Under the pieces are notes generated by a model. That model made no database searches. It was given only the letters and a program-made list of their open reading frames with translations, and had not been told where the DNA came from. Shown here in pieces: positions 34,528 through 50,040 of a stretch of DNA of 56,203 nt. Position 1 is the first letter of the stretch, and each line of letters begins with the position of its first letter. The stretch covers positions 1 through 56,203 of the IMG/VR virus record IMGVR_UViG_2778260992_000008. The stretch is one strand, 5' to 3'. The translations under genes and the position numbers were made by a program. The DNA is from a virus (taxonomy: Duplodnaviria; Heunggongvirae; Uroviricota; Caudoviricetes).

Positions 34528-34555
34528 CCCCGGCGCGATGCCGGGGATTTTTTTT
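34528..34555 (+). terminator. rho-independent terminator after major capsid gene
   Basis: CCCCGGC-GCGAT-GCCGGGG hairpin followed by T8. Confidence 0.7.
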
Positions 34556-34573
34556 GTATGTGGAGCAAGCAAA

Positions 34574-34960
34574 ATGGTTACTACTGAACAGGCGCGGGAC
34601 TATCTCGACAGCCAGGGGATAGAGTTACCCGACATCATTCTGGATTTGATGGTGGAGCAAGCAAATAGCGTTAATGAATGTCTTGATGCTAACTATCCGG
34701 CCTCCACTGCAACGCTAATACAACTTTATCTGATCGGCCTGTTAGGACTCACGCAGGCGAATAAATATATTTCCTCACAGACAGGTCCGAACGGTGCAAA
34801 CCAGTCCTACCGCTATGTCGATTTCAACAAGAAACTGAAAGCGGCGCGGACGTTGCTTTATTCCGTTGATAAGCACCATTGCACGGCTGAACTGATTCCG
34901 GCAGATCCTGAAGCCACCGCGCACGCCGGGATCTGGATTGGTAAAAGCGGGAGGTTGTAA
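34574..34960 (+). CDS. head-tail connector/adaptor protein
   Basis: Position after capsid gene; ATG 34574 with RBS TGGAG. Confidence 0.4.
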   Translation: MVTTEQARDYLDSQGIELPDIILDLMVEQANSVNECLDANYPASTATLIQLYLIGLLGLTQANKYISSQTGPNGANQSYRYVDFNKKLKAARTLLYSVDKHHCTAELIPADPEATAHAGIWIGKSGRL

Positions 34961-34962
34961 CC

Positions 34963-35148
34963 ATGTGGAACGACCTAACGTTACCGGATCCGGTATTACC
35001 GAAGCCATTTACCCGTGTGTGGGTGAAGACTGACACCGGGCGACAGGTTGCCGCCTATCTCAATGATACTGGTCAATGGGTAATTCTTTGCCCGCGCGTG
35101 GCGAAAACCCATCCAAAAATCATCAAGTGGAGTTACGGTTATGAGTAA
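34963..35148 (+). CDS. hypothetical small protein
   Basis: 61-aa ORF in head-tail joining block. Confidence 0.35.
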   Translation: MWNDLTLPDPVLPKPFTRVWVKTDTGRQVAAYLNDTGQWVILCPRVAKTHPKIIKWSYGYE

Positions 35149-35527
35149 GATTGCCCGATTCAGTTACAAGGCATTAGCCACTATTTACCCCGTAACGTAT
35201 GACGACTGGAACAATTCGAAGGTATACGGGCAACCTTACCTGATTGATTGCGCCTGGACGGCGACGGAAGGTAAAGACGAAGACGAGCGCGGGAGTGAAA
35301 CCGATGTTAGTTACGTCATATTTACCGAACTGCTTTACAACCTGCAACCAGTGGAGCGCCCCCGGAAAGGGTGGATGATTGCCCCAGGTGATACCACGGC
35401 TTTTTCTGATCCGCTTGAGGCTGGCGCGAATGAGATCTCCGGTGTGGTTGAATGGGACATGAGCATGTTTAACGACACGCCGGATTATAAAATCATTACA
35501 GGTAATAGCGTGCAAAGTAAATATTAA
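35141..35527 (+). CDS. head-tail joining / head closure protein
   Basis: 128-aa ORF by position; overlapping starts. Confidence 0.35.
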   Translation: MSKIARFSYKALATIYPVTYDDWNNSKVYGQPYLIDCAWTATEGKDEDERGSETDVSYVIFTELLYNLQPVERPRKGWMIAPGDTTAFSDPLEAGANEISGVVEWDMSMFNDTPDYKIITGNSVQSKY

Positions 35528-35538
35528 AGGGGTTTTCT

Positions 35539-36369: not shown

Positions 36370-36876
36370 ATGTCTACAACTTGCCAGAAAGGCGCATTCA
36401 CAGGGCGCGACGTCGCGGTGTTTTACGCTATTGCTTGCCCTAACGCGAAGCCAGCGGATGAAGATTATTTAGAGCTTGGCATGATGCGTGCTAAAACGCT
36501 TTCCGTCGAATGGGAAACCGCAGACGCCACCGCTGACAAATCCGCTGATTACACCAAAGAATCACTGGTAACTTACAAATCTGTTTCTTTCTCCGGTGAT
36601 GGCGTATCCCGTACCGAAGAAATCTATAATCAGAAGGCATTGAAACGCCATACCATCAATCCAGGTGAAGCCACTGGCGGACAGCCTTATGTATGGTTGA
36701 AAATTGTTTCCCCGATGGACGTAACAGAGGGACCATTCCTTTGCACCAACTTTGAAGAAGACGATCCACACGATGACGTTTGCACCTGGTCGATCGAATG
36801 TTCCAGCGCCGGACAAGTCACCTCCGATGACCTCCCGGCGGAAGAAGTCGCCGAAGACGGAGTTCCTACTGAATAA
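36370..36876 (+). CDS. major tail protein
   Basis: 168 aa; RBS AGAGGTAAAAGAAT-ATG; followed by terminator and chaperone/tape-measure genes. Confidence 0.55.
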   Translation: MSTTCQKGAFTGRDVAVFYAIACPNAKPADEDYLELGMMRAKTLSVEWETADATADKSADYTKESLVTYKSVSFSGDGVSRTEEIYNQKALKRHTINPGEATGGQPYVWLKIVSPMDVTEGPFLCTNFEEDDPHDDVCTWSIECSSAGQVTSDDLPAEEVAEDGVPTE

Positions 36877-36884: not shown

Positions 36885-36909
36885 GGGGCCATCCGGCCCC
36901 TTTTCTTTT
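36885..36909 (+). terminator. rho-independent terminator/attenuator after major tail gene
   Basis: GGGGCC-ATCC-GGCCCC hairpin followed by TTTTCTTTT. Confidence 0.6.
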
Positions 36910-36915: not shown

Positions 36916-37602
36916 ATGATTATGATTCATGTTCGTACCGGACAATTTGAAATTAAGGTTGATGGTCACGCATATATATTTAATCCATCCTTTGCAGCTA
37001 TGGCGCGAATCGGTGATGATTCCGAACTGGTGCGCTACTTTGCCATTGTTCATGGTGGAAGGTATCCGAAAATCTTCCCTATCGATCCAGACCTTCGCAA
37101 ACGGGTTTTAGCGCGGTGTTATGGTGAACTGGTGCAGACGGCTATTCACATTCTGAAATCATGCGCAGAAAGCGAAATAGGGCCGCTGGTGGGCGAGTGT
37201 AGATTTACTCCGGCGGGCAAATTACGGTTGCGCCCTGGCTTGCTGCCAACTCAGGACGTCATCACGCTGGCGCAACATTGCATGTACCACGGTTTAATCG
37301 GTGACATCCCCGGTAACAAACAACAAACTGATAAGCAGGAAGGGGAATATAAATCAACGTTCGATGTTCTTGATTACGTTTATTCCGCCGTTGCTCATCT
37401 TGGACTATCTGAATCAGAGGCGTGGGCCATGACCATGACCGGATATAGGGCCGCTGTACGCGCTAAAACGCCGCCAGAAGCGAAAAACGAGAAAAGACGA
37501 CCAGATGCCGCCATAGATAAAAAGGCTTATGACGATGGGATGCAGGCCGCAAGAAAGGCACTGGAAAGAATGAAAAAATTAAAACAGAAAAAAGCCCGGT
37601 AG
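36916..37602 (+). CDS. tail assembly chaperone (putative)
   Basis: Position between major tail and tape-measure genes; ATG 36916 (track ORF begins 36883 inside the hairpin). Confidence 0.4.
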   Translation: MIMIHVRTGQFEIKVDGHAYIFNPSFAAMARIGDDSELVRYFAIVHGGRYPKIFPIDPDLRKRVLARCYGELVQTAIHILKSCAESEIGPLVGECRFTPAGKLRLRPGLLPTQDVITLAQHCMYHGLIGDIPGNKQQTDKQEGEYKSTFDVLDYVYSAVAHLGLSESEAWAMTMTGYRAAVRAKTPPEAKNEKRRPDAAIDKKAYDDGMQAARKALERMKKLKQKKAR

Positions 37603-37614
37603 TTCCGGGCTTTT
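37593..37614. terminator. bidirectional hairpin terminator
   Basis: AGCCCGG-TAGTT-CCGGGCT with T-runs on both strands; sits between convergent genes. Confidence 0.55.
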
Positions 37615-37616
37615 GT

Positions 37617-38228
37617 TTAGTTCCAGTGGCAAGCATTTTTCACTTTGTTGATATGTTTTTCTAAGCCTTCGATGTTGAATGTTGCTTTTTCGATATAGCC
37701 CGCTTCCGGCAATGTTTCGATAATGAATTGTTTCTCGTTAAGCATTTTTTTAATCATCGGGATGGCTTTTTTGCCGTTCCATAATCCCAGGGCTTTATAG
37801 TTAGTTGCCCGTTGCCATTCTGCTTTCACCGCTTTATGTTCCCCGATCCGGTAGGTAACTTGGGTGGTATCGCCAGCATCCGCAATCATGTTATGCCAGG
37901 CTACAAACATTTTTGTTGTATTGGCTTTGCATTCGATAACTAATACCGGTTTATTTTTCTCTTTTGCTTTCAGTGCCGGGAAATCATCAAGCTGACCGTT
38001 AAATTTTACCGCTTTGACATGTAGCTGTACATTGGGTGTATCGTGCATATCGTCCTTACCTTCCCACACGGCCCACTGTTTCCCAATGTTATCCCGTTCC
38101 ATTTCTTGATGTTTTTCAGCTATTTCTTTTTCAAATTGTTTAATATTTTCAAGGCTTTTTGCTTGTTGTTCGCAACCAACCAGCCCAACCAGCGCCGCCA
38201 TTATTGCCACTTTCGCTAACCGTTTCAT
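37617..38228 (-). CDS. lipoprotein (accessory gene, opposite strand, inside tail module)
   Basis: Signal peptide plus lipobox MKRLAKVAIMAALVGLVGC; ATG 38228 with GGGG RBS; own promoter and terminator. Confidence 0.6.
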   Translation of the reverse strand: MKRLAKVAIMAALVGLVGCEQQAKSLENIKQFEKEIAEKHQEMERDNIGKQWAVWEGKDDMHDTPNVQLHVKAVKFNGQLDDFPALKAKEKNKPVLVIECKANTTKMFVAWHNMIADAGDTTQVTYRIGEHKAVKAEWQRATNYKALGLWNGKKAIPMIKKMLNEKQFIIETLPEAGYIEKATFNIEGLEKHINKVKNACHWN

Positions 38229-38276
38229 AAAACACCCCGTTTGCCTTGAATTACTAACCACTTCCTATAGCTTCTT

Positions 38277-38316
38277 TATACAAAATGGAGTCGTTAAAGC
38301 AAATCCATTTTGTATA
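38277..38316. promoter_or_regulatory. perfect inverted repeat TATACAAAATGGA-N14-TCCATTTTGTATA with divergent promoter elements
   Basis: 13-nt arms at 38277-38289 and 38304-38316; TATAAA-like hexamers at both ends, one per strand. Confidence 0.55.
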
Positions 38317-38354
38317 AAATAGTTACACAGATCACAAAAACGGAGATCAACGCT

Positions 38355-41237
38355 ATGGCTAAAAATGTAGGCGCGATTGAATACACGGTCGACGCCAAAA
38401 CCGGGTCGCTACTGGTTGCACAGAAAGAAGTAGACAAAGCAACCGGAGCGATGGAAAAAGACCTGCAACGGGTAGACACCGCCGCTGATAAGGTGAGTAA
38501 ATCCCTGGCTGGCTTATCCACGGTCGCCCGTGCGGTTGGCGCGGCACTGGTGACAAGAAAGATCATTGACTACGCCAACGCCTGGCAAGAAGTAAACAAT
38601 AAGCTGGTTAACTCCGTCCGGTCAAATGAATCACTGGAAGAAGTTACAAACCGGGTTTTTAAAGCCGCACAGAAATCAATGTCACCACTGGACGCCACCG
38701 CCGCGCTTTACTCCAAATTGGAACGCGCAACGCGTGACAGTGGACTAAGCGGGCGTGACCTGGCAAGCATCGTGGAAACGATTAACAAATCCTTTCAGGT
38801 GTCCGGTGCATCCGCAAGCGAAATGGAAGGCGGGATCAGACAATTGGCCCAGGCTTTGGGGTCTGGTGAATTGCGCGGCGATGAATTTAATAGCGTAATG
38901 GAGAACGCGCCACGCCTGGCGGAAGGTATCGCAAAATCAATGGGCGTATCCAGTACCGCATTACGTGAAATGGCGAAGGATGGCAAGATCACGAAAGATA
39001 TAATTATCGCAGCGGTCCGGGCGATGAAGTCCGAAGTCGATAAAGAATTCAGCAATATGGCGATCACCATGTCGGACGCCTTCACCGTCGCCACCAACAA
39101 CGCGACTAAGTATTTCGGTGAAAACTCCGTGATCCGTAGCGGGATTAACGCGTTTAACAGCACGCTGATTACCCTATCTGAAAACCTGGACGTTGTAACC
39201 GCCTCAGCCATCGCGCTTGGTGCTGTAATGGGTGGTCGGGCGTTGGGTGGCATTATCCAGGCAACGGCGGAAAACATCCGGCTGGCAGCCGCCAACCAGA
39301 AAGCAGCACAGGCCGCCGCGCAGCAGGCAGCAGCAGAAGCCAACCTGGCACGCCAGCAGCTACACACAGCCGCCGCCGGACTTAAAGCAGCATTGCAGGC
39401 AGAAGGGGAGGCCCGCGCCCACTACCAGGCCGCGCAGGGTACAAACGCCCACACCGCCGCGCTTGCTCGTCTCCGTGTAGCGCAAGCGCAAACCGCCGCC
39501 GCTTACACGGCTATGCGCACCGCTGCCACCACGGCTAACGCGGCAATCGTTGCTTCCGGTACAGCAGCAAAAGCCGCCAGTATCGGGATGCGGATCTTTA
39601 ATGGCGCGTTAGGGTTACTTGGTGGCCCCGCTGGCGCAATCATGACCGCCGCTATTTGCTTGGGTACGCTTATCCTTAACATGGAAAGCACCGAAGAGAA
39701 AGCCGCCAACGCAAAAGCCAAAATCGACGAATTGGCTATGTCGTTCGACGATATGAGCAAAAATGAACTGGAAGCGGCCTTAATTGAGATAAACAAACAA
39801 CTCAAAGACATTGAGGAAAACGCCCGGAAGGCAAAAGCCGAACTGGATCGTATGGTGAAAAACCGCGCTATCCTGGAAAAATTAGCACAGAGTGAGGATC
39901 CAGAAATTGCCGGGCCTGCAAAGGCGGCGTTAGGCATTGCCGATGACAATATGAAAACCTTAGAGGGTAAGGTTGACACAGCTAATAAAAACCTTGAAAA
40001 AGCCAACGAGAAAGCCGACGAAGCAAAAGCCCGCATTAATGGTACATACGTTCCGCCGAAACCTACCGGAACAGGAAGCGGCAGCGGTGGCAGCGGTGGC
40101 AAGGACGGGAAGGGCAAGAAACCGAAAAAATCTGATTGGGATAAGTTAGGCGATGAAGGCTTAAATATTTCCGACCAGTACAACAAAGACGCCGCCGCAA
40201 TGCGTAAACTTGGCGAAGAACAAAAAGCCCTGGATGCAGCGTACAAGCAAGGGAAGATCACTTATCTGGAATATACAGCCGCGAAGGAGGGCGCAAGCAA
40301 GGCACTGGCTGACACGCTGAAACAGTTACGCGAGGAAGAACAGCAAGCCAAATGGGACAGCCTTGTCTCTGATGAAGACAAGAAAAAAGGCCAGGTAGAC
40401 CCTATTCAGCAGTTGCAAAATGAATGGACTATCAGAAAGCAAATGCTCACTGATTTAGGCGCTACACAGGCCCAATTAAAAATGGAAGAGTTAGCCTATG
40501 AACAACAGCTAACCGCGCTCAAATGGGAACAATGGCAGGCACAAAGCGACACTAACGCGCTTATTGGTGATTGCGTCAACGGTTTAACAAGCGGCATGGG
40601 TAACGCCATTACCGGATTAGTCAATGGCACGCAATCCCTTAGCGAGATGTTTGCTAACCTGGGTAGTAACATCCTCGGCACGGTAGGTAACCGCTTATCT
40701 CAGATTGCAGCAAACTGGATAGCCGATCAGATCATGATGGAAAGCCAGAGCAAGGCAGCGCAAGCCAGTACCACGGCGGGCGCGGTAGCGGCGCAAGGTC
40801 AGATCGCAGCGGCAGCGGCCCCGGCAGCGGCGGCAACGGCGGCTTCAACTGGCGGTAGCTGGGCGGCGGCTGGTGCGGCGGCATTATCTGCGATCATGAC
40901 GCTGGCGACATCCATTTTTGGCGGCGGGCGTTATCATGGGGGTAGCGTAACTGGTGGCAACCTATACCGCGTGGGTGAGCATAACAAGCCAGAATTATTT
41001 CAGGCCACTAACGGGCGGCAATACATGATCCCCGGCGAAAACGGTCGCGTGGTAAGCAATAGCGCGATGGGTGGCGGCGGCATCAATATGCCTGTTAACA
41101 TCACAGTAAACACGACAAATGGTTTTGGCGAAGAAGACAGCAAGCGCCTACAACAGACAATCGAGAATACGGCAATGGGGATTATCAGGCGCGAAAGCCA
41201 ACGCCCTGGAGGCATGATCCAACCGCGCAAAAAATAA
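38355..41237 (+). CDS. tail tape measure protein
   Basis: ~960 aa, Ala-rich coiled-coil with Gly-rich C-terminal segment; ATG 38355 with RBS GGAG. Confidence 0.85.
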   Translation: MAKNVGAIEYTVDAKTGSLLVAQKEVDKATGAMEKDLQRVDTAADKVSKSLAGLSTVARAVGAALVTRKIIDYANAWQEVNNKLVNSVRSNESLEEVTNRVFKAAQKSMSPLDATAALYSKLERATRDSGLSGRDLASIVETINKSFQVSGASASEMEGGIRQLAQALGSGELRGDEFNSVMENAPRLAEGIAKSMGVSSTALREMAKDGKITKDIIIAAVRAMKSEVDKEFSNMAITMSDAFTVATNNATKYFGENSVIRSGINAFNSTLITLSENLDVVTASAIALGAVMGGRALGGIIQATAENIRLAAANQKAAQAAAQQAAAEANLARQQLHTAAAGLKAALQAEGEARAHYQAAQGTNAHTAALARLRVAQAQTAAAYTAMRTAATTANAAIVASGTAAKAASIGMRIFNGALGLLGGPAGAIMTAAICLGTLILNMESTEEKAANAKAKIDELAMSFDDMSKNELEAALIEINKQLKDIEENARKAKAELDRMVKNRAILEKLAQSEDPEIAGPAKAALGIADDNMKTLEGKVDTANKNLEKANEKADEAKARINGTYVPPKPTGTGSGSGGSGGKDGKGKKPKKSDWDKLGDEGLNISDQYNKDAAAMRKLGEEQKALDAAYKQGKITYLEYTAAKEGASKALADTLKQLREEEQQAKWDSLVSDEDKKKGQVDPIQQLQNEWTIRKQMLTDLGATQAQLKMEELAYEQQLTALKWEQWQAQSDTNALIGDCVNGLTSGMGNAITGLVNGTQSLSEMFANLGSNILGTVGNRLSQIAANWIADQIMMESQSKAAQASTTAGAVAAQGQIAAAAAPAAAATAASTGGSWAAAGAAALSAIMTLATSIFGGGRYHGGSVTGGNLYRVGEHNKPELFQATNGRQYMIPGENGRVVSNSAMGGGGINMPVNITVNTTNGFGEEDSKRLQQTIENTAMGIIRRESQRPGGMIQPRKK

Positions 41238-41242
41238 AATAA

Positions 41243-41270
41243 CCCCCGGCGAAAGCTGGGGGTTTTCTTT
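41243..41270. terminator. bidirectional hairpin terminator after tape measure gene
   Basis: CCCCCGGC-GAAA-GCTGGGGG followed by TTTTCTTT; T-rich on the opposite strand too. Confidence 0.6.
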
Positions 41271-41448
41271 ATTCAACTTCGTCATTTTTAAATTCGTTGT
41301 TTACATAAAGCTGTAATGCGCTTATCAGTTCGGCGGCTTGCTTTTTGTCTATGACGATTAATTCGCAGTCACTTTCAAGCCATAATCTTTCGTCATATTC
41401 AATGCTAAGATTAATCCGCCGACAACCTTCCGTTTCATGAATAATCAT
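41269..41448 (-). CDS. small acidic protein (59 aa)
   Basis: MIIHETEGCRRINLSIEYDERLWLESDCELIVIDKKQAAELISALQLYVNNEFKNDEVE; RBS GGGGGAAATA; ends at the bidirectional terminator. Confidence 0.35.
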   Translation of the reverse strand: MIIHETEGCRRINLSIEYDERLWLESDCELIVIDKKQAAELISALQLYVNNEFKNDEVE

Positions 41449-41539
41449 TATTTCCCCCTATAATCGACCATTCCGCGCAATATATCCCCTTCCGAAAATT
41501 ACCAACCAAATATTCCAGATCTCCCGCCATGTAAATTTA

Positions 41540-41689
41540 TCATCTTCCATATCTCACCCCATCGCGCTTATAAGGCTTGTTATCAGCAAACGGGATTAAC
41601 GCATCGTTTGCCACCTGGCGATTAAACCAATCTTTCAGGACAACCAGGGAAAACCGGATGCCGTAGCTATGTAATTCGTGCCATTTCAT
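41540..41689 (-). CDS. small hypothetical protein (49 aa)
   Basis: ATG overlaps stop of upstream 84-aa gene (ATGA). Confidence 0.25.
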   Translation of the reverse strand: MKWHELHSYGIRFSLVVLKDWFNRQVANDALIPFADNKPYKRDGVRYGR

Positions 41690-41940
41690 TTATGACACCC
41701 CCGCACGCCGCATAATTCATTGTATTTATGATGCTCAACAATCAACCAAACTTTTAGATCCTGGCTGTAAAGCCGCCAATCAGGGTTGATATCGAATTTA
41801 AAACCATAACCATCTCGTAACTTTTTGGGGTGGGCTTCTTTATTTAGGAAAGCATTTAATAAAGCCTTACCCTTTTTGATGATCCGGTCCTGCGCGTTTT
41901 TTTGTGCTTTCAAATTTTTATCAATCGCTACCAGTTTCAT
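41686..41940 (-). CDS. hypothetical basic protein (84 aa)
   Basis: ORF in track; second gene of a tightly packed minus-strand cassette. Confidence 0.45.
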   Translation of the reverse strand: MKLVAIDKNLKAQKNAQDRIIKKGKALLNAFLNKEAHPKKLRDGYGFKFDINPDWRLYSQDLKVWLIVEHHKYNELCGVRGCHK

Positions 41941-41958
41941 AGCCCACCCCCATCATCC

Positions 41959-42126
41959 TTAGTTGACCGCTTTCAGGTAAAAATCCCGGTATTCGTTTTC
42001 CTTCACGTTCATGTAGAATTGGCCCATTTTAAATGCATCGTCGAAGCCTTTAACGATCGCCACTTCCACTTGTTCGAATGCGTCGTTAAGCATCACGACC
42101 GCGTAGTGTTTATCGTTGCGTTTCAT
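41959..42126 (-). CDS. small hypothetical protein (55 aa)
   Basis: ATG 42126 preceded by AAGGAGG; track ORF 41959-42201 begins further upstream. Confidence 0.4.
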   Translation of the reverse strand: MKRNDKHYAVVMLNDAFEQVEVAIVKGFDDAFKMGQFYMNVKENEYRDFYLKAVN

Positions 42127-42295
42127 CTTGGGCCTCCTTTGTTGGTACTGCTTTTCTTCTTGCTTTCTGTATACATCTTGTTGCGTCCTGTGTGAAGCCA
42201 TTTTGTAAACTGGTTATAATTCTTGTGATGAAGTTCTCATTTTTCGCGTAGAAGCGCGTAAAGATGTACACAAAATGTAACTTATAGGGGGAATT

Positions 42296-42649
42296 ATGCC
42301 GGAAGTGTTTACCTGGACGCCGCAGCGTAGCTACAGCGTAACCAGGGAGCCGAACGTTTCAGTTATTAAGCTGGGTGATGGTTATGAACAAAGGCAGACA
42401 AAAGGGATTAACCCTTTGCTTGATAGCTATAGCCTTGTCTTTAAGGGTACAAGCGCCGGATGCGGTGACGCTGGCAATCCAGCGATCCAGGCGGAGGCGT
42501 TTTTACGGGCGCGCGGCGCGGTCGAGGCGTTTTACTGGACGCCATCAATGGATGGGGAGCAAAGGCTTTTTGTCTGCCGAAAATGGAACATGACAAAGGA
42601 TGGCCCTGTGTTCACGCTAACCGCGACGTTTGAGCAAGTGATGAATTAA
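42296..42649 (+). CDS. minor tail protein M (lambda gpM-like)
   Basis: GDGYEQRQ...YSLVFKG...EAFLRARGAVEAFYWTP...FTLTATFEQVMN parallels lambda M. Confidence 0.8.
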   Translation: MPEVFTWTPQRSYSVTREPNVSVIKLGDGYEQRQTKGINPLLDSYSLVFKGTSAGCGDAGNPAIQAEAFLRARGAVEAFYWTPSMDGEQRLFVCRKWNMTKDGPVFTLTATFEQVMN

Positions 42650-42933: not shown

Positions 42934-42940
42934 AATAACA

Positions 42941-42961
42941 CCCCGCCGAAGCGGGGTTTTT
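42941..42961. terminator. bidirectional hairpin terminator
   Basis: CCCCGC-CGAA-GCGGGG followed by TTTTTCG; between convergent plus and minus genes. Confidence 0.6.
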
Positions 42962-42965: not shown

Positions 42966-43103
42966 TTAGAAGTTCATGTGCATCAAGCCCATTGGGTGAG
43001 CGTGCGCCATGTTCTCAGCTATTGCGCACCAATCCCAATCCGCAGCGTGCACGCCAAATACTATCAAGCCCATTGCGATTAGCGCTAAAACTTCGATTTT
43101 CAT
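42966..43103 (-). CDS. small secreted His/Met-rich peptide (45 aa)
   Basis: MKIEVLALIAMGLIVFGVHA signal-like N-terminus then ADWDWCAIAENMAHAHPMGLMHMNF; RBS GGGGTGAACC. Confidence 0.35.
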   Translation of the reverse strand: MKIEVLALIAMGLIVFGVHAADWDWCAIAENMAHAHPMGLMHMNF

Positions 43104-43114
43104 GGTTCACCCCA

Positions 43115-43186
43115 TTAATTCAGAAAGGCATAAACGATGGCAATCGCGCCAGCCACTACCAAAACATTTTCGATTACTTCATCCAT
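43115..43186 (-). CDS. small hydrophobic peptide (23 aa)
   Basis: MDEVIENVLVVAGAIAIVYAFLN; RBS GGCGGTGA. Confidence 0.3.
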   Translation of the reverse strand: MDEVIENVLVVAGAIAIVYAFLN

Positions 43187-43195
43187 AATCACCGC

Positions 43196-43444
43196 CTATA
43201 AGTTATCACGCAGATAATTAACGCCCTTGTCAGTGACGAATGAATGATTAACCTGGTTTTCATCCGTCATAATAATGAATAACTTTTCCTGTAAGTATTT
43301 TGCTTTTGGGTACAGCGTTAAACAGACCTGATACAGTATCCCGCGCTCAATCAGCAAATCAATAAATTCGTGCTCATGATAACCGATGAGACGGGCGGCC
43401 TGTTTCAACGTGTACACATAATCACCGTGATTGCGCCGCCCCAT
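43196..43444 (-). CDS. hypothetical protein (82 aa), possibly DNA-binding
   Basis: ORF in track; YTLKQAARLIGYHEHEFIDLLIERGIL has HTH-like character. Confidence 0.4.
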   Translation of the reverse strand: MGRRNHGDYVYTLKQAARLIGYHEHEFIDLLIERGILYQVCLTLYPKAKYLQEKLFIIMTDENQVNHSFVTDKGVNYLRDNL

Positions 43445-43452
43445 GTTGCCGC

Positions 43453-43806
43453 CTATTTATCAAAGCAACTTAAATTATCGATACAGAAGTCTTTAGCAGC
43501 ATTTTCGTATTCGCGTTTTGCTTCAGGATCGTCAGCCGGGAAGCCTTTTGCGTGGATTTCACCAGGGCAAGACTGATCCATAGAGTCTGCAAATTCAACA
43601 TTGACGTTAAAGTTAATATCTTTCGGGTTCATATCTTCCACCTTCTCGGCTATTTGTACCGGAGTTATTTTGAATTCCCTGGCGCGCCCGAAGAAGCGAA
43701 CAAGTTTTTCTCCTTCCTCGACTGCCATTTCGTAACTGTCATGTAAGCCGTAACCTTCCCAATCCTTACTGCCTGCCATCCATACATCGAGACGGTATTT
43801 TTGCAT
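43453..43806 (-). CDS. hypothetical acidic protein (117 aa)
   Basis: ATG 43806 four nt after upstream stop; track ORF extends to 43860. Confidence 0.4.
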   Translation of the reverse strand: MQKYRLDVWMAGSKDWEGYGLHDSYEMAVEEGEKLVRFFGRAREFKITPVQIAEKVEDMNPKDINFNVNVEFADSMDQSCPGEIHAKGFPADDPEAKREYENAAKDFCIDNLSCFDK

Positions 43807-43807
43807 T

Positions 43808-43975
43808 TTACTGATCCCCGCTTTTAATCGGTTTAATCCGGTAGCCCAGGACGCGATCATCTTTTTCCGATAGGTCGAGGGCCGTTTCTAGGGCGTCGCC
43901 AGGGTTATCGAATTCAGCCTCGATATCACGCCCGTTACTCATGAATAAGGTCAGTCGCCATAGTTTATCGTTCAT
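43808..43975 (-). CDS. small hypothetical acidic protein (55 aa)
   Basis: MNDKLWRLTLFMSNGRDIEAEFDNPGDALETALDLSEKDDRVLGYRIKPIKSGDQ; RBS AAGGGCGCGGG; first gene downstream of minus-strand promoter. Confidence 0.35.
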   Translation of the reverse strand: MNDKLWRLTLFMSNGRDIEAEFDNPGDALETALDLSEKDDRVLGYRIKPIKSGDQ

Positions 43976-44023
43976 CCCGCGCCCTTTTGTGCCATTTTGT
44001 TAACTGTGCTTCCGTTTGAGTAA

Positions 44024-44061
44024 AATATACATATTGTACAAACCGCGATCAATCCATTTTG
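44024..44061 (-). promoter_or_regulatory. sigma70-like promoter for minus-strand cassette, with upstream CAAAATGGA element
   Basis: On minus strand: CCAAAATGGA-TTGATC-N17-TATATT; same layout as the promoter at 8733-8775. Confidence 0.5.
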
Positions 44062-44106
44062 GTATGATTTGGCGTGACGCAGATCACAAAATCAGAAGGT
44101 GAGAAA

Positions 44107-44811
44107 ATGCGCAATATACCGACAGAGATGATTATTGATTCCGTGGACGCTGGCGTGGGCGCGGTGATTGACTTGTTCGAATTGGACTTGTCGCCCCTGG
44201 GTGGGGAAGTTATCCGCTTCCATTCTGGCACGAATGGTTATTACGGTGATGTAATTTGGAAAGGGATTGCATACAACAGCTACCCGATCGAGGTTAGCGG
44301 CTTTGAGATGAAAAACGAGGGCGTTTATTCGCGGCCCCAAATGGCGGTCGCCAATATGGGCGGCCTTGTTACCGGAATGAACAACGATTACAACGACCTG
44401 GTAGGAATGAAGGTAACGCGCCGCCAGGTGGCGGTAAAGTACCTGGACGCTGTTAACTTCCCTAACGGCAATCCCGATGCAGATCCATCTATCGAGGCCG
44501 TATCGGTTTACGTTGTCGAGGCAATGAGCGAAGAAACCGCCGACCAGGTGCAATATGAACTGGCAACGCCGATTGATGCAGATAAGGCCATCATCCCAGG
44601 GCGCACCATCCTTGCGGACGTTTGCCAATGGCAATACAAAGGCGATGGATGCGGCTACGCTGGCGGGCCAGTTGCCACCGACAAAGACACACCGACCAAT
44701 GACCCGACGCTGGACAAATGCAGCCACCGCCTAAGCGGTTGTCGCTTGCGTTTCCCGCGCCCAAATCCGCTACCGATTTCGTGCTTTCCTGGTTCGGGTA
44801 AGGTGAGCTAA
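44107..44811 (+). CDS. minor tail protein L (lambda gpL-like)
   Basis: GFE.NG....RP...V.N..G.VTGM and CQWQYKGDGCGYAG match lambda L; ATG 44107 with RBS AAGGTGAG. Confidence 0.85.
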   Translation: MRNIPTEMIIDSVDAGVGAVIDLFELDLSPLGGEVIRFHSGTNGYYGDVIWKGIAYNSYPIEVSGFEMKNEGVYSRPQMAVANMGGLVTGMNNDYNDLVGMKVTRRQVAVKYLDAVNFPNGNPDADPSIEAVSVYVVEAMSEETADQVQYELATPIDADKAIIPGRTILADVCQWQYKGDGCGYAGGPVATDKDTPTNDPTLDKCSHRLSGCRLRFPRPNPLPISCFPGSGKVS

Positions 44812-46030: not shown

Positions 46031-49000
46031 ATGGGCGGCGGTGGTGGTAAAACAAAAACACCTGAATTATTGAATGATAACTTATATCATAAACAGTTTT
46101 ATCGCGTGCTGGATATATTAAGCGAAGGACCGATTTATGGTCCCGTTAATACGACCGCGCCGTTAAACTGCGTGATGTTGAATGATACACCTATAACCGA
46201 TGAAGTGGGAAATACCAGTATTCCGGGCGTTAGTGTCGCCTGGCGGCCTGGTACGCTCGACCAATCCCCGATTAATGGTTTTAATGCCATCGAATCGACG
46301 GTAATGGTTAACGCAAAAGTAACGCATGACACCCCACTGGTTAGGACGGTATCAGACCCGAACGTGACGCGCGTCCGGTTAAATATTGGCGTGGACTCAC
46401 TAGTGGAAAGCGACAGTGAATCTAATCAGCACAATACAACGGTTATAATGGCGATCGACGTTAAGCCTTCGTCATCGTCTACCTGGTCGGCGGTTAAAGC
46501 CGTTTCTATCACTGGTAAAATTAGCGGCGAATATCTGGAATCACACATCATTGACGCGCCAAGTGAAAGCCCGTTTGATATTCGCGTCCGGCGCGTCACC
46601 GCTGACAGTGTAAGCGACTTATTGCAGAATGATACCCGCTGGAATAGCTACAGTGAGATCATCGACGATAACCTGGCTTACCCTTACACAGCCGTAGCAG
46701 GTGCGGTAATTGACCATGACCAGTACGCTGACACACCCACCCGCACTTATCATCTGCGCGGCCTGATTGTTGATGTACCGGATAACTACGACCCGGAAAC
46801 GCGTACTTATTCCGGTTTATGGCTGGGTGGCTTTAAAAAGGCGTACACCAATAACCCCGCGTGGTTGTTCCGCTACCTGATCAAAAACGACCGTTTCGGC
46901 CTTGCTCGACAGGCTGGTTATATTGATGTTGACGATGGCGCTTTATACACGCTTTCACAATATTGCGATCAGTTGGTTGATGATGGCTACGGCGGAAAAG
47001 AGCCACGCCTTACCCTTAACGCCTATATCACCGAACAAAAAAGCGCCCGTGATTTACTGGATAACATCGCCGGAATGTTCCGTGGCATCGCATTATGGGA
47101 CGGGCAGCGCCTTACCGTGATGATTGATGCGCCGCAAGACCCGATTGCAACCATCACAAACGCAAACGTCGTTGATGGCGCTTTCACCCGTTCAAGCATC
47201 GCCCGTGCCGAACGTTACAACGCGGTTGTTGTGTCCTGGACCGACCCGGAAAACGGCTGGGAGCAAACAAAAGAGTATGTATCAGATGATGAACTGATCG
47301 CCCGTGACGGTTACAACGAAACCACGCTGGAGGCGTTCGGATGCACATCACGCGGGCAAGCATACCGCGCGGGCAAATGGCTGATAGAAACAGCAAAACG
47401 CGAGCCGTCAAAATTCACGTTTAAAATGGCCCGTGACGCGATTCACTTTACGCCAGGGGATATCATCGAGATCCTCGACAATAACCGCGCGGGCGCTCGT
47501 TTAGGCGGTCGTATCGTGGCGAACAATGGCAAGGTGATAACGGTCGATAAGGTTGATTCAGAATACATTACCGCAGGTGACACCATCAGCTTACTCGATA
47601 GCGATGGCAAATTTAAAAAGCACCAGATTACCGGGGTGAATGGAAATGAGATCACCTTAGCGGCGGCCCCGGCATGGATACGCAACGGGACCGTTTTCGC
47701 TGTATCCACTGAAGCAGCAAAACCCGTTTTGTGTCGGATCACCAGTGTAGCCGAAACTGAAAATAACAGCGTGTACACCATCGAGGCCGCGCAGCACGAC
47801 CCAAATAAACAGGCGGTAGTCGATGAAGGCACAATCTTCGAAATCAGCAGCGACACGCTAAATCACTTCCGCGTGCCGAACATCGAAAATTTGAAAGTGG
47901 TAAACGTTGGATCAGAGACAGTTCAATGCCGCGCCACCTGGGAGACACAGACAACAACGCGTAGCCTGACTTTTGAGATCCGCATATACAACGCAGACGG
48001 GCGCGTGGTGGCAAGCTACGAAACGCAGAATTACCGATATGAATTTTTCGGCCTTGAATGCGGGAATTACTCGTTGGGCGTGCGCGGGCGTAATGATGCT
48101 GGCATGAAGGGTGCGGAAACGCTGGTAGATCTCATCGTTGGAGCGCCAGCCGCGCCGACTGGTGTTAATTGGGTGCCAGGTGTTTTCCAGGCAACCGTCT
48201 ACCCGATCAACAGCACCACACTAACGACCGATACCACTTACGAATTTTATTATGCCGGGGAAAACCAGATCACTGACTTCAGCCAGGTAACAACATCAGC
48301 GCAATTCACCGGGCGCGGGTATCAATGGACCTTCGGCGGGATGGCAACGGGGCACACGTATTACGTTTACGTGCGCACAAAAAACGCTTTCGGTGTATCT
48401 GACTTTATCGAAGCCAGCGGTAAACCTTCCGAAAACTTCGAAGAAATCACGGATGCCGTGCTGAATGAAGTTATGGAAGGCGAACAATTCCAGAACATGA
48501 TCAAGGACTCCATAGACGAAGTAACAGGCGGTTTAATGGGTGACGTGGAAGAACTGAAACAAACCACGGTAGACATTGACCAGGCTGTTACCGATCTGAA
48601 GGAATCAACCGCCGATCTGGAAGAACGTGTAAAAAACAATGAGGACGGAATTGGGGAGCACGAAAGCCAGATTAACGAAATCAGCGTAGAATTGACGGAG
48701 CAGGAAAACGAGCTAATGCAGACCCGCGCCAGCCTGCAAAACGCAGCCATTGCGCTTATGAATAACTCATTAGCCAACACCAGCACCCGCACCACGTTAA
48801 CGGCGCAATATAAGAGCCAGAAAGCGGAAACGAAAGCAGAAATTGAGCGCATTGATTCAGTTATTGCTACAGAGAAGGAGGCGACCGCGCAGGCGCTTAC
48901 CACGCTTGAAAGCAAGGTGAATGACGAAATCAGCGCCAACTTAACCGAAATGCAGCAGACGATCGCAACGCTGGAGGAATCGACAAGCCAATCAATCGAA

Positions 49001-50005
49001 AAACTGGAAAGCCAGGTAAACGAGGATATCCAGGCCAGCTTAACGGAGATTAACCAGACAATCACCAATCTGGAATCATCCACGGCTGAATCCATTAATA
49101 ACCTTGAAGCGAAAGTAGACGGCGATATCTCATCAGCGATCAGCAGTATGGATCAGGCATTAGCTACGCATGAACAAGCCAACGCTACACAGTTTGCCAG
49201 CCTGCAATCTCAGATTGATGAGAATGAAGCGGCAATCACTGAAACTAATCAGACGATTGCAACCAATGAGCAAGCGACCGCGCAGAAGCTGGAGCAATTG
49301 CAAGCCCAAATCGATGATGATGTGTCGGCAGCCATTACCGAAATGCAAACGGCACTTGCTACCCACGAAAAGGCCAACGCTACACAGTTTGCGGAGATTA
49401 GCGCATCACTGGAAGCAAACGAAGCAACGATCACGGAGTGGGGCGAAGCGTTTACATCTTACAAGGAATCAACCGCCACGCAGATCGAAAGCATCACGGC
49501 CTCAATCGACGGGCAATCGGTATCAATCGAAGAAAACAAAACCGCAATTGCCGGTATTGAAACAGATATGTCGGCAACGTGGAGCATTAAGATCGCTACT
49601 GACAATAACGGCATGAAGTATGCGTCCGGGATTTCGTTAGGTATGACCGGATCAGGAAGTAGCACACAATCACAATGCATTTTCCTTGTTGACCGCTTTG
49701 TGCTAATGACGGCGGCAAACGGCACATATACGACACCTTTCTATGTTACAAACGGTGCAATGTATGTGCGCGAAGCGTTTATTAAAGACGCATCAATCAC
49801 TAACGCGAAAATTGGATCTTACATCCAGTCCAATAACTATGTTTCCGGTAGCACTGGCTGGAAGCTGGATAAATCCGGTACATTCGAAAACTATGGCGCG
49901 GTGAGTGGTGAAGGCGCAATGAAATTAACAAATACCACTATTTCAGTAAAAGACGGTAACGGCGTTTTACGCGTCCAAATTGGGCGGATTACCGGATCAT
50001 GGTAG
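46031..50005 (+). CDS. host specificity / central tail fibre protein J
   Basis: 1324 aa; conserved gpJ N-terminal region; quasi-repetitive coiled-coil region ~48500-49500. Confidence 0.85.
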   Translation: MGGGGGKTKTPELLNDNLYHKQFYRVLDILSEGPIYGPVNTTAPLNCVMLNDTPITDEVGNTSIPGVSVAWRPGTLDQSPINGFNAIESTVMVNAKVTHDTPLVRTVSDPNVTRVRLNIGVDSLVESDSESNQHNTTVIMAIDVKPSSSSTWSAVKAVSITGKISGEYLESHIIDAPSESPFDIRVRRVTADSVSDLLQNDTRWNSYSEIIDDNLAYPYTAVAGAVIDHDQYADTPTRTYHLRGLIVDVPDNYDPETRTYSGLWLGGFKKAYTNNPAWLFRYLIKNDRFGLARQAGYIDVDDGALYTLSQYCDQLVDDGYGGKEPRLTLNAYITEQKSARDLLDNIAGMFRGIALWDGQRLTVMIDAPQDPIATITNANVVDGAFTRSSIARAERYNAVVVSWTDPENGWEQTKEYVSDDELIARDGYNETTLEAFGCTSRGQAYRAGKWLIETAKREPSKFTFKMARDAIHFTPGDIIEILDNNRAGARLGGRIVANNGKVITVDKVDSEYITAGDTISLLDSDGKFKKHQITGVNGNEITLAAAPAWIRNGTVFAVSTEAAKPVLCRITSVAETENNSVYTIEAAQHDPNKQAVVDEGTIFEISSDTLNHFRVPNIENLKVVNVGSETVQCRATWETQTTTRSLTFEIRIYNADGRVVASYETQNYRYEFFGLECGNYSLGVRGRNDAGMKGAETLVDLIVGAPAAPTGVNWVPGVFQATVYPINSTTLTTDTTYEFYYAGENQITDFSQVTTSAQFTGRGYQWTFGGMATGHTYYVYVRTKNAFGVSDFIEASGKPSENFEEITDAVLNEVMEGEQFQNMIKDSIDEVTGGLMGDVEELKQTTVDIDQAVTDLKESTADLEERVKNNEDGIGEHESQINEISVELTEQENELMQTRASLQNAAIALMNNSLANTSTRTTLTAQYKSQKAETKAEIERIDSVIATEKEATAQALTTLESKVNDEISANLTEMQQTIATLEESTSQSIEKLESQVNEDIQASLTEINQTITNLESSTAESINNLEAKVDGDISSAISSMDQALATHEQANATQFASLQSQIDENEAAITETNQTIATNEQATAQKLEQLQAQIDDDVSAAITEMQTALATHEKANATQFAEISASLEANEATITEWGEAFTSYKESTATQIESITASIDGQSVSIEENKTAIAGIETDMSATWSIKIATDNNGMKYASGISLGMTGSGSSTQSQCIFLVDRFVLMTAANGTYTTPFYVTNGAMYVREAFIKDASITNAKIGSYIQSNNYVSGSTGWKLDKSGTFENYGAVSGEGAMKLTNTTISVKDGNGVLRVQIGRITGSW

Positions 50006-50011
50006 AATTAA

Positions 50012-50040
50012 GGGGCCGACTTGTTCGGCCTCAGTTTTAT
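50012..50040 (+). terminator. weak hairpin terminator after J
   Basis: GGCCGA-CTTGT-TCGGCC followed by TCAGTTTTA. Confidence 0.35.

What the first reader, a model, noticed from the sequence alone, without database searches (positions are those of the whole stretch)
34528..50040. Late region cut into separate transcription units by hairpin terminators
Canonical hairpin plus T-run terminators follow the major capsid gene (34528), the major tail gene (36885), the tail chaperone gene (37593), the tape measure gene (41243), the gene M block (42941) and J (50012). Each is followed by a promoter-like region carrying the recurrent motifs. In lambda the late genes form one long antiterminated operon, so this layout differs.
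Basis: partly seen in the sequence, partly recalled or inferred. Interest (0 to 1): 0.4.

Follow-up and report, generated by a model that had tools for sequence, protein, structure and literature searches.

The report
Terminator hairpins punctuating a phage late operon
Six real, conserved terminator hairpins sit among this coliphage's head and tail genes, but they probably do not split the region into independent units. Three leave no room for a new promoter, three mark where backward-facing accessory gene cassettes sit between tail genes, and the phage carries lambda's own read-through (Q) protein, so the layout is largely ordinary and already annotated in relatives.

Summary
The window is a relative (about 80-91% nt identity) of the mEp021/mEpimmI coliphages. 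All six hairpin + T-run sites exist at the stated coordinates. They lie 0-19 nt after stop codons and are far commoner than in shuffled sequence. They are conserved at the same junctions in 10 related genomes, with loop variation, one compensatory stem change and hairpin replacement. GenBank records of mEp021 and mEp010 already annotate them as terminators.

After the capsid, tail-tube and J genes the next gene starts 15-26 nt later, so there is no room for a promoter and no motif. Downstream genes there need read-through. The other three hairpins are bidirectional terminators shared by a late gene and a convergent reverse-strand, low-GC, mosaic accessory block (VasI-like lipoprotein, ParE-like, KilAC-like; a fourth block is Cor). 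The recurrent motifs lie 0.7-1.2 kb further on, in conserved control regions where the + strand genes resume.

The phage encodes a lambda-family Q antiterminator, an N-like protein and three nut sites. Lambda itself has hairpins after E, J and lom. The best reading is a Q-antiterminated late operon carrying attenuator hairpins and reverse-oriented morons, perhaps with internal booster promoters.

The parts
18737..19459 (+). Q-type late antiterminator gene (240 aa), directly after the NinG and RusA-like genes
   Evidence: phrog_127, E = 1.4e-78. Pfam PF03589 Antiterm, 102.6 bits against a cut-off of 26.7. 33.6% identity over 99% of its length to lambda (DE3) Q, and 32.8% to the P22 antiterminator. 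The mEp021 homologue gp37 is annotated 'putative late gene regulator Q'.
24835..24876 (+). Conserved about 45-nt non-coding block before the holin gene. Candidate late promoter/qut-like element: TAAAAT (24849-54), 7 nt, AACAAT (24862-67).
   Evidence: Nearly invariant in 5 phages, while the coding sequence just upstream is unalignable. Its geometry resembles lambda PR': TAAATT, 6 nt, AACGAT. This is an inference, not a demonstration.
24882..24900 (+). Hairpin + T6 immediately upstream of the holin gene (ATG 24927), in a tR'-like position
   Evidence: z = -2.8. The equivalent site is annotated TERM_5 in mEp021, T9 in mEp010 and T10 in mEp013.
34527..34547 (+). Hairpin a after the major capsid gene. 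8-bp stem, T8 tail, next gene ATG at 34574.
   Evidence: z = -3.5. The stem is invariant in 11 genomes and the loop varies G/A. Annotated TERM_7 in mEp021 and T11 in mEp010. The gap to the next gene is 26 nt.
36885..36900 (+). Hairpin b after the major tail tube gene. GGGGCC/GGCCCC stem, next gene ATG at 36916/36922.
   Evidence: z = -1.7. The stem is invariant while there are five different loops in 11 genomes. Annotated TERM_8 and T12. The gap is 15 nt.
37590..37614 (.). Bidirectional terminator c between the DUF6246 gene (its stop codon lies in the loop) and the convergent reverse lipoprotein gene
   Evidence: z = -4.8 on +, -5.1 on -. One double compensatory stem change in L010, GCCAGG/CCTGGC. 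Annotated TERM_9 and T13/T14.
37617..38228 (-). Reverse block 1: VasI/TagO-like lipoprotein gene, GC 0.417
   Evidence: phrog_1848, Pfam PF11319 VasI, GC content. Relatives carry different genes in this slot.
38273..38339 (.). Control region R1: inverted pair TTTATACAAAATGG-N16-CCATTTTGTATAAA, then GTTACACAGATCACA. Upstream of the tape measure ATG (38355) and of the reverse lipoprotein ATG (38228).
   Evidence: (D13). The motif is invariant in 11 genomes while the flanks drift.
41241..41264 (.). Bidirectional terminator d after the tape measure gene
   Evidence: z = -4.7 / -3.7. About four unrelated hairpin sequences occupy the same junction in relatives. Annotated TERM_10 and T15.
41269..42201 (-). 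Reverse block 2: 4-5 small genes including a ParE-like toxin-domain protein (41686-41940), GC 0.417
   Evidence: (PF24732). Gene content is mosaic among relatives.
42163..42290 (.). Control region R2: CCATTTTGTAAAC (42198), invariant TATAAT (42220), TGTGATGAAGTTCTCA palindrome (42224), and a facing reverse-strand motif (42276). Upstream of M (ATG 42296).
42940..42957 (.). Bidirectional terminator e after M and two small ORFs
   Evidence: z = -1.9 / -3.1. Two sequence types occur in relatives. Annotated TERM_11/12 and T17.
42966..43975 (-). Reverse block 3: 5-6 small genes including a KilAC/ANT-domain protein (43196-43444), GC 0.451
   Evidence: (PF03374).
43991..44091 (.). Control region R3: CCATTTTGTTAAC, a reverse-strand variant, CCATTTTGGTATGAT (extended -10, TGGTATGAT) and CGTGACGCAGATCACA. 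Upstream of L (ATG 44107).
50012..50032 (+). Hairpin f after J. The next + gene has its SD at 50044 and ATG at 50056.
   Evidence: z = -4.1. Three sequence types occur in relatives, and it is absent where J abuts a reverse DUF6453 gene. Annotated TERM_13 and T18.
50957..51196 (-). Reverse block 4: Cor superinfection-exclusion lipoprotein gene
   Evidence: phrog_1119. RefSeq annotates homologues as 'phage exclusion lipoprotein Cor'.
51275..51322 (+). Control region R4: CATTTTGTATAAA, TGTAACATAGATCACA palindrome, and a near-invariant extended -10 (TGGTAGAAT). Upstream of the tail fibre gene (ATG 51356).

Best explanation
The lysis, head and tail region is most likely a lambda-type late operon. 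RNA polymerase would be made terminator-resistant by the phage's Q protein, probably at a conserved promoter/terminator module just upstream of the holin gene, and to some extent by the N-like protein loaded at nutR1/nutR2.

The six hairpins are genuine intrinsic terminators lying inside that transcript, and they fall into two classes.

Class 1 (a, b, f; after the major capsid, major tail tube and J genes) are in-operon attenuators or 3'-end stabilisers. They act on unmodified polymerase, which keeps the prophage silent. They may also trim or stabilise messages for the abundant capsid and tube proteins. Downstream genes are expressed by read-through.

Class 2 (c, d, e) are bidirectional terminators. 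They form the shared 3' ends of a late gene and a convergent reverse-oriented moron cassette (exclusion or defence-type genes, low GC, mosaic among relatives). They stop moron transcripts from running antisense into tail genes, and they stop stray rightward transcription in the lysogen.

Conserved control regions at the 5' side of each cassette carry the recurrent CCATTTTG + -10-like motif in both orientations. These probably hold the moron promoter and a regulated + strand promoter that can boost or re-start the tape measure, M, L-J and fibre genes.

Shown: the hairpins, their conservation, the gene content, the presence of Q, N-like and nut sites, and the spacing constraints. Inferred: Q action at the pre-holin block, read-through, and promoter activity of the motifs.
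For: Hairpins are real, non-random and sit next to stop codons.

They are conserved at the same junctions in 11 genomes. Stems stay invariant while loops vary (b). There is one double compensatory change (c). Different hairpins replace each other at the same place (d, f).

Gaps of 26, 15 and 23 nt to the next gene after a, b and f leave no space for a promoter.

A lambda-family Q protein is present. An N-like protein and exactly three nut sites are present, none in the late region. This agrees with PMC11893012.

A conserved block plus hairpin lies before the holin gene, with lambda-PR'-like spacing of a -10 and a -10-like repeat.

Lambda control: hairpin + T-run sites directly after E, J and lom, and a reverse-oriented bor, all within a known single antiterminated operon.

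The reverse blocks meet moron criteria. GC is 0.417-0.451 against 0.475-0.535 for neighbouring genes. Content is mosaic. They have their own terminators and encode accessory-type proteins.

The original moron, HK97 gene 15, sits in the same chaperone/tape-measure slot and mediates exclusion (PMC3594210). Leaky and bidirectional terminators are documented in phage operons (PMC9163698).
Against: No transcript data exist for this phage group, and the published papers do not address late transcription.

The candidate Q-utilisation site is inferred from spacing and conservation only. It has no recognisable -35. It lies 5.4 kb from Q, whereas Q is adjacent to PR' in lambda.

Hairpin a (8-bp G+C stem, T8) looks like an efficient terminator.

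Canonical extended -10 elements, conserved in most relatives, sit 30-40 nt upstream of L and of the fibre gene. An invariant TATAAT sits upstream of M. Re-initiation may therefore contribute substantially.

Read-through polymerase would meet head-on transcription from four reverse cassettes.
Confidence: 0.6

Rival explanations
1. The late region is genuinely segmented. Hairpins c, d and e, and perhaps f, are efficient stops even in lytic growth. The tape measure gene, M, L-K-I-J and the fibre gene would each be transcribed mainly from their own regulated promoters in regions R1-R4. Those regions share the CCATTTTG motif and a GTGA-N6-TCAC operator. Hairpins a and b remain attenuators.
For: Promoter-like modules are conserved exactly where + genes resume. 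TATAAT is invariant upstream of M. TGGTATGAT occurs in 8 of 11 genomes upstream of L. TGGTAGAAT occurs in 9 of 10 upstream of the fibre gene. These regions are as conserved as the essential genes they precede (0.76-0.88 identity), while the adjacent blocks are mosaic. Palindromes sit where a bound protein would occlude these promoters, which suggests regulation. Read-through would have to cross 0.6-1.0 kb of antisense cassettes.
Against: A full-length lambda-family Q and an N-like system are present. None of these promoters has a good -35, and the consensus scan did not flag them. The hexamer after CATTTTG is not conserved as a -10 at R4 and in 3 of 11 genomes at R3. Three of the six hairpins cannot start new units. 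Lambda shows that such hairpins coexist with one operon.
Confidence: 0.27
2. The hairpins work mainly in the prophage state, as insulators. They would block read-through from host, moron or leaky promoters into lysis and structural genes, and would have no quantitative role in lytic expression.
For: A hairpin sits directly before the holin gene and at both ends of cassettes expected to be expressed in lysogens. Exclusion lipoproteins of this group act when expressed alone (PMC11893012). By definition, morons carry terminators for expression from repressed prophages (PMC3594210).
Against: Hairpins a and b lie far from any cassette and directly after the two most abundant structural genes. That position fits stoichiometry or mRNA-stability roles better. 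This rival overlaps the best explanation rather than excluding it.
Confidence: 0.08
3. The hairpins are not transcriptional signals. They would be recombination or mosaic-boundary sequences, or protein-binding palindromes, that happen to look like terminators.
For: Hairpin types at d and f co-vary with the neighbouring cassette type, so they travel with modules. An identical 16-mer, GGGGCCATCCGGCCCC, occurs at 36885 (+) and 23487-23472 (-).
Against: Every hairpin has a correctly oriented T-run: on both strands where genes converge, and on one strand only where they do not. All start within 19 nt of a stop codon. Stems are kept while loops vary, and there is a compensatory change. Two independent predictors called the equivalent sites in relatives.
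Confidence: 0.05

Closest known systems
Phage lambda late operon (Q antitermination at PR'/qut, tR' before the lysis genes)
   Same: A Q protein of the same Pfam family (PF03589). A terminator lies directly upstream of the holin gene. Gene order is lysis, then head, then tail, on one strand. Hairpin + T-run sites follow the major capsid gene and J (lambda 7163 and 18920). An accessory gene follows J (lom). A reverse-oriented moron (bor) lies in the transcript path.
   Different: Q is 5.4 kb from the candidate late promoter instead of adjacent to it. Extra hairpins follow the tail tube, chaperone-position, tape measure and M genes. Three reverse-strand cassettes split G/T-position | H | M | L, which abut or overlap in lambda. 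Q-dependence here is untested.
[quoted passage not shown]
   Same: An accessory cassette in the same slot, with its own terminator and a presumed own promoter. Base composition is atypical and presence/content varies among relatives. Function is of the superinfection-exclusion type (PMC3594210).
   Different: Here the cassettes are reverse-oriented, multi-gene in two cases, and occupy four slots. Their terminators are bidirectional and shared with the upstream late gene.
P22-like 'ant moron' (immI region) inside the late operon
   Same: A variable accessory region within a Q-dependent late operon that contains antirepressor-type genes (PMC2629481). Block 3 here encodes a KilAC/ANT-domain protein.
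   Different: Different position (before the tailspike gene in P22-like phages). There is no evidence here for arc/mnt-type control.
Leaky in-operon and bidirectional terminators mapped in phage transcriptomes (LUZ7 ONT-cappable-seq; T7 inefficient terminators)
   Same: Hairpin terminators within structural operons allow partial read-through and balance expression. Bidirectional terminators sit between convergent genes (PMC9163698).
   Different: Those phages use different polymerases and regulation. No transcript mapping exists for the mEpimmI group.
mEp021 / mEpimmI phages (GenBank MH706966, PP180001-5; PMC11893012)
   Same: Same genome architecture. The equivalent hairpins are already annotated as terminators: TERM_5 and TERM_7-13 in mEp021, and T9, T11-T15, T17 and T18 in mEp010. 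The same Q, N-like protein (Gp17), nut sites and exclusion lipoproteins are present.
   Different: The window is a distinct member: about 80% nt identity to the phages and 91% to an E. coli RM9245 prophage. It has a longer tape measure gene and different cassette contents. The papers do not analyse late transcription.

Membership tests
Intrinsic (Rho-independent) terminator | Short G+C-rich hairpin | tested here: met
   All six have 6-10 bp stems with 6-7 G-C pairs and energies of -12.5 to -19.4 kcal/mol. They form the MFE and centroid structures.
Intrinsic (Rho-independent) terminator | U-rich tract immediately 3' of the hairpin on the transcribed strand | tested here: met
   At least 5 T in 8 nt within 0-2 nt of the stem for all six on the + strand. 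For c, d and e this also holds on the - strand. The tract at f is interrupted (AGTTTTATT).
Intrinsic (Rho-independent) terminator | Position at the 3' end of a gene, with structure conserved in relatives | tested here: met
   0-19 nt after stop codons. Present at the same junctions in 11 genomes, with loop variation, one compensatory change and hairpin replacement.
Intrinsic (Rho-independent) terminator | Measured termination of transcription | not testable with these tools
   No transcript data. Only predictions in GenBank records of relatives (ARNold, and a scored predictor).
Lambda-type Q-antiterminated late operon | Q-family antiterminator protein encoded upstream of the late genes | tested here: met
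   PF03589, 102.6 bits against a cut-off of 26.7. phrog_127, E = 1.4e-78. Full-length 33.6% identity to lambda Q.
Lambda-type Q-antiterminated late operon | Late promoter with a qut site (Q-binding element plus promoter-proximal -10-like pause element) followed by a terminator before the lysis genes | tested here: inconclusive
   A terminator lies directly before the holin gene (met). The conserved block has TAAAAT-7 nt-AACAAT, resembling lambda TAAATT-6 nt-AACGAT. There is no clear -35, no identified Q-binding element, and it is not adjacent to Q.
Lambda-type Q-antiterminated late operon | Late genes co-oriented in one uninterrupted transcription unit | tested here: not met
   All lysis and structural genes are on the + strand, but four reverse-strand blocks interrupt them: 37617-38228, 41269-42201, 42966-43975 and 50957-51196. 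Lambda also has reverse bor in the path, so this is a difference of degree.
Lambda-type Q-antiterminated late operon | Q-dependent read-through of downstream terminators | not testable with these tools
   Requires genetics or transcript mapping.
Moron (independent accessory transcription unit inserted in a phage operon) | Extra DNA relative to related phages, with content variable among relatives | tested here: met
   Lambda H, M and L abut with no inserts. Block contents differ among the 11 relatives, with 0.41-0.69 identity against 0.74-0.88 for flanking genes.
Moron (independent accessory transcription unit inserted in a phage operon) | Base composition different from neighbours | tested here: met
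   GC is 0.417, 0.417, 0.451 and 0.450 for the blocks, against 0.475-0.535 for adjacent structural genes.
Moron (independent accessory transcription unit inserted in a phage operon) | Own terminator | tested here: met
   Hairpins c, d and e have - strand T-runs at the 3' ends of blocks 1-3. The cor block has no good - strand terminator.
Moron (independent accessory transcription unit inserted in a phage operon) | Own promoter, with expression from the repressed prophage | tested here: inconclusive
   Conserved - strand CATTTTG + -10-like elements lie 45-65 nt upstream of the first gene of blocks 1-3. Activity is untested. Exclusion by related lipoproteins was shown only from plasmids (PMC11893012).

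The most novel reading that the evidence does not exclude
The mEpimmI-type phages may run their tail genes as a segmented, separately regulated late regulon. Under this reading, the bidirectional terminators and reverse cassettes truly break the Q-dependent transcript. The tape measure, M, L-J and fibre genes would be re-started from a dedicated promoter class (CCATTTTG + -10, often as back-to-back or face-to-face pairs). That class would be gated by a GTGA-N6-TCAC operator bound by host CRP or by a phage factor. The same module is used at early sites (12808/12832 and 16700/16748, the latter next to nutR2).
Probability: 0.2. Interest if true: 0.5.

Novelty: new member of a known kind. Interest (0 to 1): 0.27.

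Why it matters
The immediate value is corrective. Terminator-like hairpins inside a phage structural region do not by themselves imply separate transcription units, particularly when the phage carries Q/N antitermination and when lambda shows the same hairpins after E and J.

The less ordinary part is the density of reverse-oriented moron cassettes that split adjacent tail genes. Each has a conserved control region. This makes the phage group a convenient natural system for asking how an antiterminated operon tolerates head-on internal transcription units. It could also show how prophage-expressed exclusion or defence genes are insulated from lethal late genes.

It also flags a candidate late promoter/qut site and a genome-wide promoter/operator module for the mEpimmI group, whose late regulation has not been described.

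Tried and rejected
- A permissive RNAfold-based terminator scan gave hundreds of hits and was uninformative. I replaced it with a strict scan and a shuffle control.
- The sigma-70 consensus scan found fewer promoter-like sites than in shuffles (21 against 27.6 in the late region; 5 against 15.5 between Q and terminase). It did not flag R1-R4, so it neither supports nor excludes them.
- Pfam on ten small ORFs between 19872 and 24632 found no antiterminator. Q turned out to lie further upstream, at 18737.
- There is no intergenic gap directly after Q for a lambda-style PR'.
- The hairpin at 21043 lies inside an ORF and was dropped as a terminator candidate.
- The promoter-like inverted pair at 22945-23043 has no counterpart in mEp013 or mEp021, so it is unlikely to be the conserved late promoter.
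- A search for nut-like boxA/boxB sites in the late region found none convincing, only the three known early sites.
- Rfam at gathering thresholds found no family anywhere in the window.
- The mEp021 antitermination paper (Arch Virol 2023) is not held in the library.
- I considered whether the CI-type repressor binds the GTGA-N6-TCAC palindromes. The immunity region instead shows repeated CTTGCA/TGCAAG palindromes plus one such site. This is left unresolved.

Full report
**Context.** The window is a temperate siphophage genome of the mEp021/mEpimmI group. Its structural region is about 80% identical to phages mEp021, mEp010, mEp013, mEp044, mEp515, mEp554 and MagusPhagus. It is 80-91% identical to prophages in 35 complete E. 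coli genomes.
- major capsid protein, 33458-34507
- major tail protein, 36370-36876
- a DUF6246 protein in the G/T chaperone position, 36922-37602
- tape measure protein, 38355-41237
- M, 42296-42649
- L, 44107-44811
- J, 46031-50005

**Observation check.** All six hairpin + T-run sites are present at the stated positions. A strict scan required at least 6 contiguous pairs, at least 4 G-C pairs, a loop of 3-7 nt, and a T-run within 2 nt. It finds 23 sites with at least 5 G-C pairs in the window, against 3.4 +/- 1.4 in dinucleotide-preserving shuffles. The six are among the strongest on the + strand. They are the MFE and centroid structures of their local sequence, with z-scores from -1.7 (b) to -4.8 (c). 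Each starts 0-19 nt after a stop codon.

Equivalent sites are already annotated as terminators in GenBank records of relatives. In mEp021 these are TERM_7-13, with predictor scores of 81-100. In mEp010 they are the ARNold predictions T11-T15, T17 and T18. The published description of the group does not discuss them or late transcription.

**Conservation.** I compared the six junctions in 11 genomes.
- Hairpin a has an invariant stem and a G/A change in the loop.
- Hairpin b keeps the GGGGCC/GGCCCC stem while the loop takes five forms.
- Hairpin c keeps GCCCGG/CCGGGC with four different loops, and one genome carries the double compensatory change GCCAGG/CCTGGC.
- At d, about four unrelated hairpin sequences occupy the same junction. 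At f there are three.
- Hairpin f is missing only where J abuts a reverse DUF6453 gene.

A structure and position that persist while the sequence turns over argue for functional RNA hairpins rather than chance palindromes.

The six sites fall into two classes.

After a, b and f the next + strand start codon is only 26, 15 and 23 nt away. That space is filled by the T-run and the ribosome-binding site. The nearest + strand copy of the recurrent motif is 1.2-3.8 kb downstream. These three sites therefore cannot begin new transcription units. The genes after them, including the major tail gene downstream of a, must be transcribed by polymerase that passes the hairpin.

Hairpins c, d and e have T-runs on both strands. 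They sit between a late gene and a convergent reverse-strand block:
- 37617-38228: a VasI/TagO-like lipoprotein (PF11319)
- 41269-42201: small genes including a ParE-like domain protein
- 42966-43975: small genes including a KilAC/ANT-domain protein

A fourth reverse gene, Cor, lies at 50957-51196.

These blocks have lower GC than their neighbours (0.417-0.451 against 0.475-0.535). Their gene content differs among relatives while their positions are fixed. Mean pairwise identity is 0.41-0.69 for the blocks against 0.74-0.88 for the flanking genes. In lambda, H, M and L abut without inserts. The blocks thus meet the sequence-level definition of morons. The original moron, HK97 gene 15, occupies the same chaperone/tape-measure slot and mediates superinfection exclusion (PMC3594210). 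Exclusion lipoproteins of this phage group have been shown to work when expressed alone (PMC11893012).

**The recurrent motifs.** CCATTTTGT is the most over-represented 9-mer in the window, with 13 copies. It is usually followed directly by a -10-like hexamer (TATAAA, TATACT, TATGAT or TAAACT). Copies lie in the four regions where + strand genes resume:
- R1, 38273-38339
- R2, 42163-42290
- R3, 43991-44091
- R4, 51275-51322

They are oriented towards the tape measure, M, L and fibre genes. On the other strand, copies point towards the first gene of blocks 1-3.

Alignment of these regions in 10-11 genomes shows sharp footprints. The motif is nearly invariant. TATAAT upstream of M is invariant. 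TGGTATGAT upstream of L occurs in 8 of 11 genomes. TGGTAGAAT upstream of the fibre gene occurs in 9 of 10, with one TGGTAAAAT variant.

A second element, GTnAC-N5-AGATCACA, forms repeat family D13. It belongs to a set of TGTGA-N6-TCACA-type palindromes, of which there are 6 with at most 1 mismatch against 1.4 expected. They sit where a bound protein would overlap the putative start sites.

The same modules occur at early sites. One is at 12808/12832. Another is at 16700/16748, just upstream of nutR2. One copy abuts the -35 of a strong PR-like promoter at 8747-8775.

I read these as a shared promoter/operator architecture. This is inference. The elements lack good -35 hexamers, the consensus scan did not flag them, and at R4 the hexamer after CATTTTG is not conserved.

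**Antitermination machinery.** Window 18737-19459 encodes a full-length member of the lambda Q family. It hits phrog_127 at E = 1.4e-78 and PF03589 at 102.6 bits against a cut-off of 26.7. It is 33.6% identical over 99% of its length to lambda Q. The mEp021 homologue is annotated 'putative late gene regulator Q'. The gene at 9099-9389 is N-like. The window has exactly three boxA/boxB sites, at 7808 (-), 9035 and 16777, and none in the late region. This matches the published Gp17/nutL/nutR1/nutR2 system.

The Q-to-holin distance varies: 5.4 kb here, 3.3 kb in mEp013 and 2.0 kb in mEp021. A block of about 45 nt plus a strong hairpin immediately before the holin gene is nevertheless nearly invariant in five phages, although the coding sequence upstream of it is unalignable. 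The block contains TAAAAT, 7 nt, then AACAAT. Lambda PR' reads TAAATT, 6 nt, then AACGAT, the sigma-dependent pause element used by Q. This makes it a candidate late promoter/qut + tR' module, but that is not shown.

**Lambda control.** The same strict scan on lambda finds + strand hairpin + T-run sites directly after E (7163-7180; E stop at 7160), after J (18920-18935; J stop at 18903) and after lom (19612-19633). Lambda also has the reverse-oriented bor gene in the path of the late transcript. Hairpins after the capsid gene and after J are therefore compatible with a single Q-antiterminated operon.

**Conclusion.** The best-supported model (confidence about 0.6) is a lambda-type antiterminated late operon with two kinds of intrinsic terminator inside it. 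The first kind comprises in-operon attenuators or 3'-end stabilisers after the capsid, tube and J genes. The second comprises bidirectional terminators that close reverse-oriented moron cassettes and protect neighbouring tail genes from antisense transcription. Both kinds also keep late genes silent in the prophage. Leaky and bidirectional terminators of this sort are documented in phage transcriptomes (PMC9163698).

The main rival (about 0.27) is that the tail genes downstream of each cassette are expressed chiefly from the conserved internal promoters, which would make the region truly segmented. Both could be partly true. End-resolved RNA-seq of lysogens and induced cells, and a Q mutant, would decide.

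The finding is real but largely ordinary and already annotated in relatives. The less ordinary aspect is the number and placement of the reverse cassettes and their shared control modules.

Noticed in passing
window 3986(-), 5261(+), 8744(-), 9398(-), 12832(+), 16690(-), 16748(+), 22976(-), 38287(-), 38306(+), 42199(+), 51275(+); variants at 7929(+), 22990(+), 42276(-), 43993(+), 44055(+): CCATTTTGT(A) is the most over-represented 9-mer in the window. It usually precedes a -10-like hexamer. It occurs as inverted pairs with identical N16 spacing at 22966-23006 and 38273-38318. Read on the other strand (ACAAAATGG), it abuts the -35 of a strong PR-like promoter (TTGACT-17-TATATT, 8747-8775). The early copies are conserved in mEp013 and mEp021. 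It is possibly a shared promoter / UP-like architecture.
   Followed up: partly
window 7935, 12808, 16700, 42224, 44073, 51295 (and a half-site at 38322): CRP-consensus-like palindromes (TGTGA-N6-TCACA, at most 1 mismatch) occur 6 times against about 1.4 expected. They lie next to the CCATTTTG motifs in both early and late regions, positioned over the putative start sites. They could be host CRP sites or operators of a phage regulator. One of them forms the stem of the terminator hairpin at 16690-16725.
   Followed up: partly
window 24835-24900: A non-coding block before the holin gene is conserved in 5 phages. It has TAAAAT-7 nt-AACAAT followed 14 nt later by a strong terminator, resembling lambda PR' (-10 plus a -10-like pause element). 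It is a candidate qut/late promoter for a group whose late regulation is undescribed, and it lies at a variable distance (2.0-5.4 kb) from the Q gene.
   Followed up: partly
window 8744(-) and 9398(-): Two conserved motif copies point leftwards with no gene to drive. One fires towards the bidirectional terminator at 8646-8629 behind the repressor gene, which would give an RNA of about 95 nt. The other is antisense to the 3' end of the N-like gene. These are possible small or antisense RNAs in the immunity region.
   Followed up: no
window 7850-7945: Repeated CTTGCA/TGCAAG palindromes (for example CTTGCAtcctTGCAAG at 7852-7867, and CAAGACTTG at 7913-7921) lie between the leftward replication operon and the repressor gene. 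They are candidate operators of the CI-type repressor (7976-8623).
   Followed up: no
window 36885-36900 (+) and 23487-23472 (-): The 16-nt hairpin GGGGCCATCCGGCCCC after the major tail gene recurs identically on the opposite strand at 23472-23487. There it overlaps the start codon of ORF 23480-23761.
   Followed up: no
window 38355-41237; L002 versus L001 and L003-L010: The tape measure gene is about 2.9 kb here and in the RM9245 prophage, but about 2.34 kb in the other nine relatives. That predicts a noticeably longer tail.
   Followed up: no
window 37617-38228 (-) and 41686-41940 (-): A VasI/TagO-family (type VI secretion-associated) lipoprotein and a ParE-like toxin-domain protein are encoded in reverse cassettes between tail genes. 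No obvious antitoxin partner was identified for the ParE-like gene.
   Followed up: no
L011 (lambda) 7163-7180, 18920-18935, 19612-19633: Lambda itself has hairpin + T-run sites directly after E, J and lom within its Q-antiterminated late operon. This is a useful control for any claim that such hairpins define transcription units.
   Followed up: yes
window 50957-51196 (-): The Cor exclusion gene overlaps the stop codon of the convergent + strand gene (50367-50960). Unlike the other three reverse blocks, it has no good - strand terminator, so its transcript would run antisense into the post-J genes.
   Followed up: no
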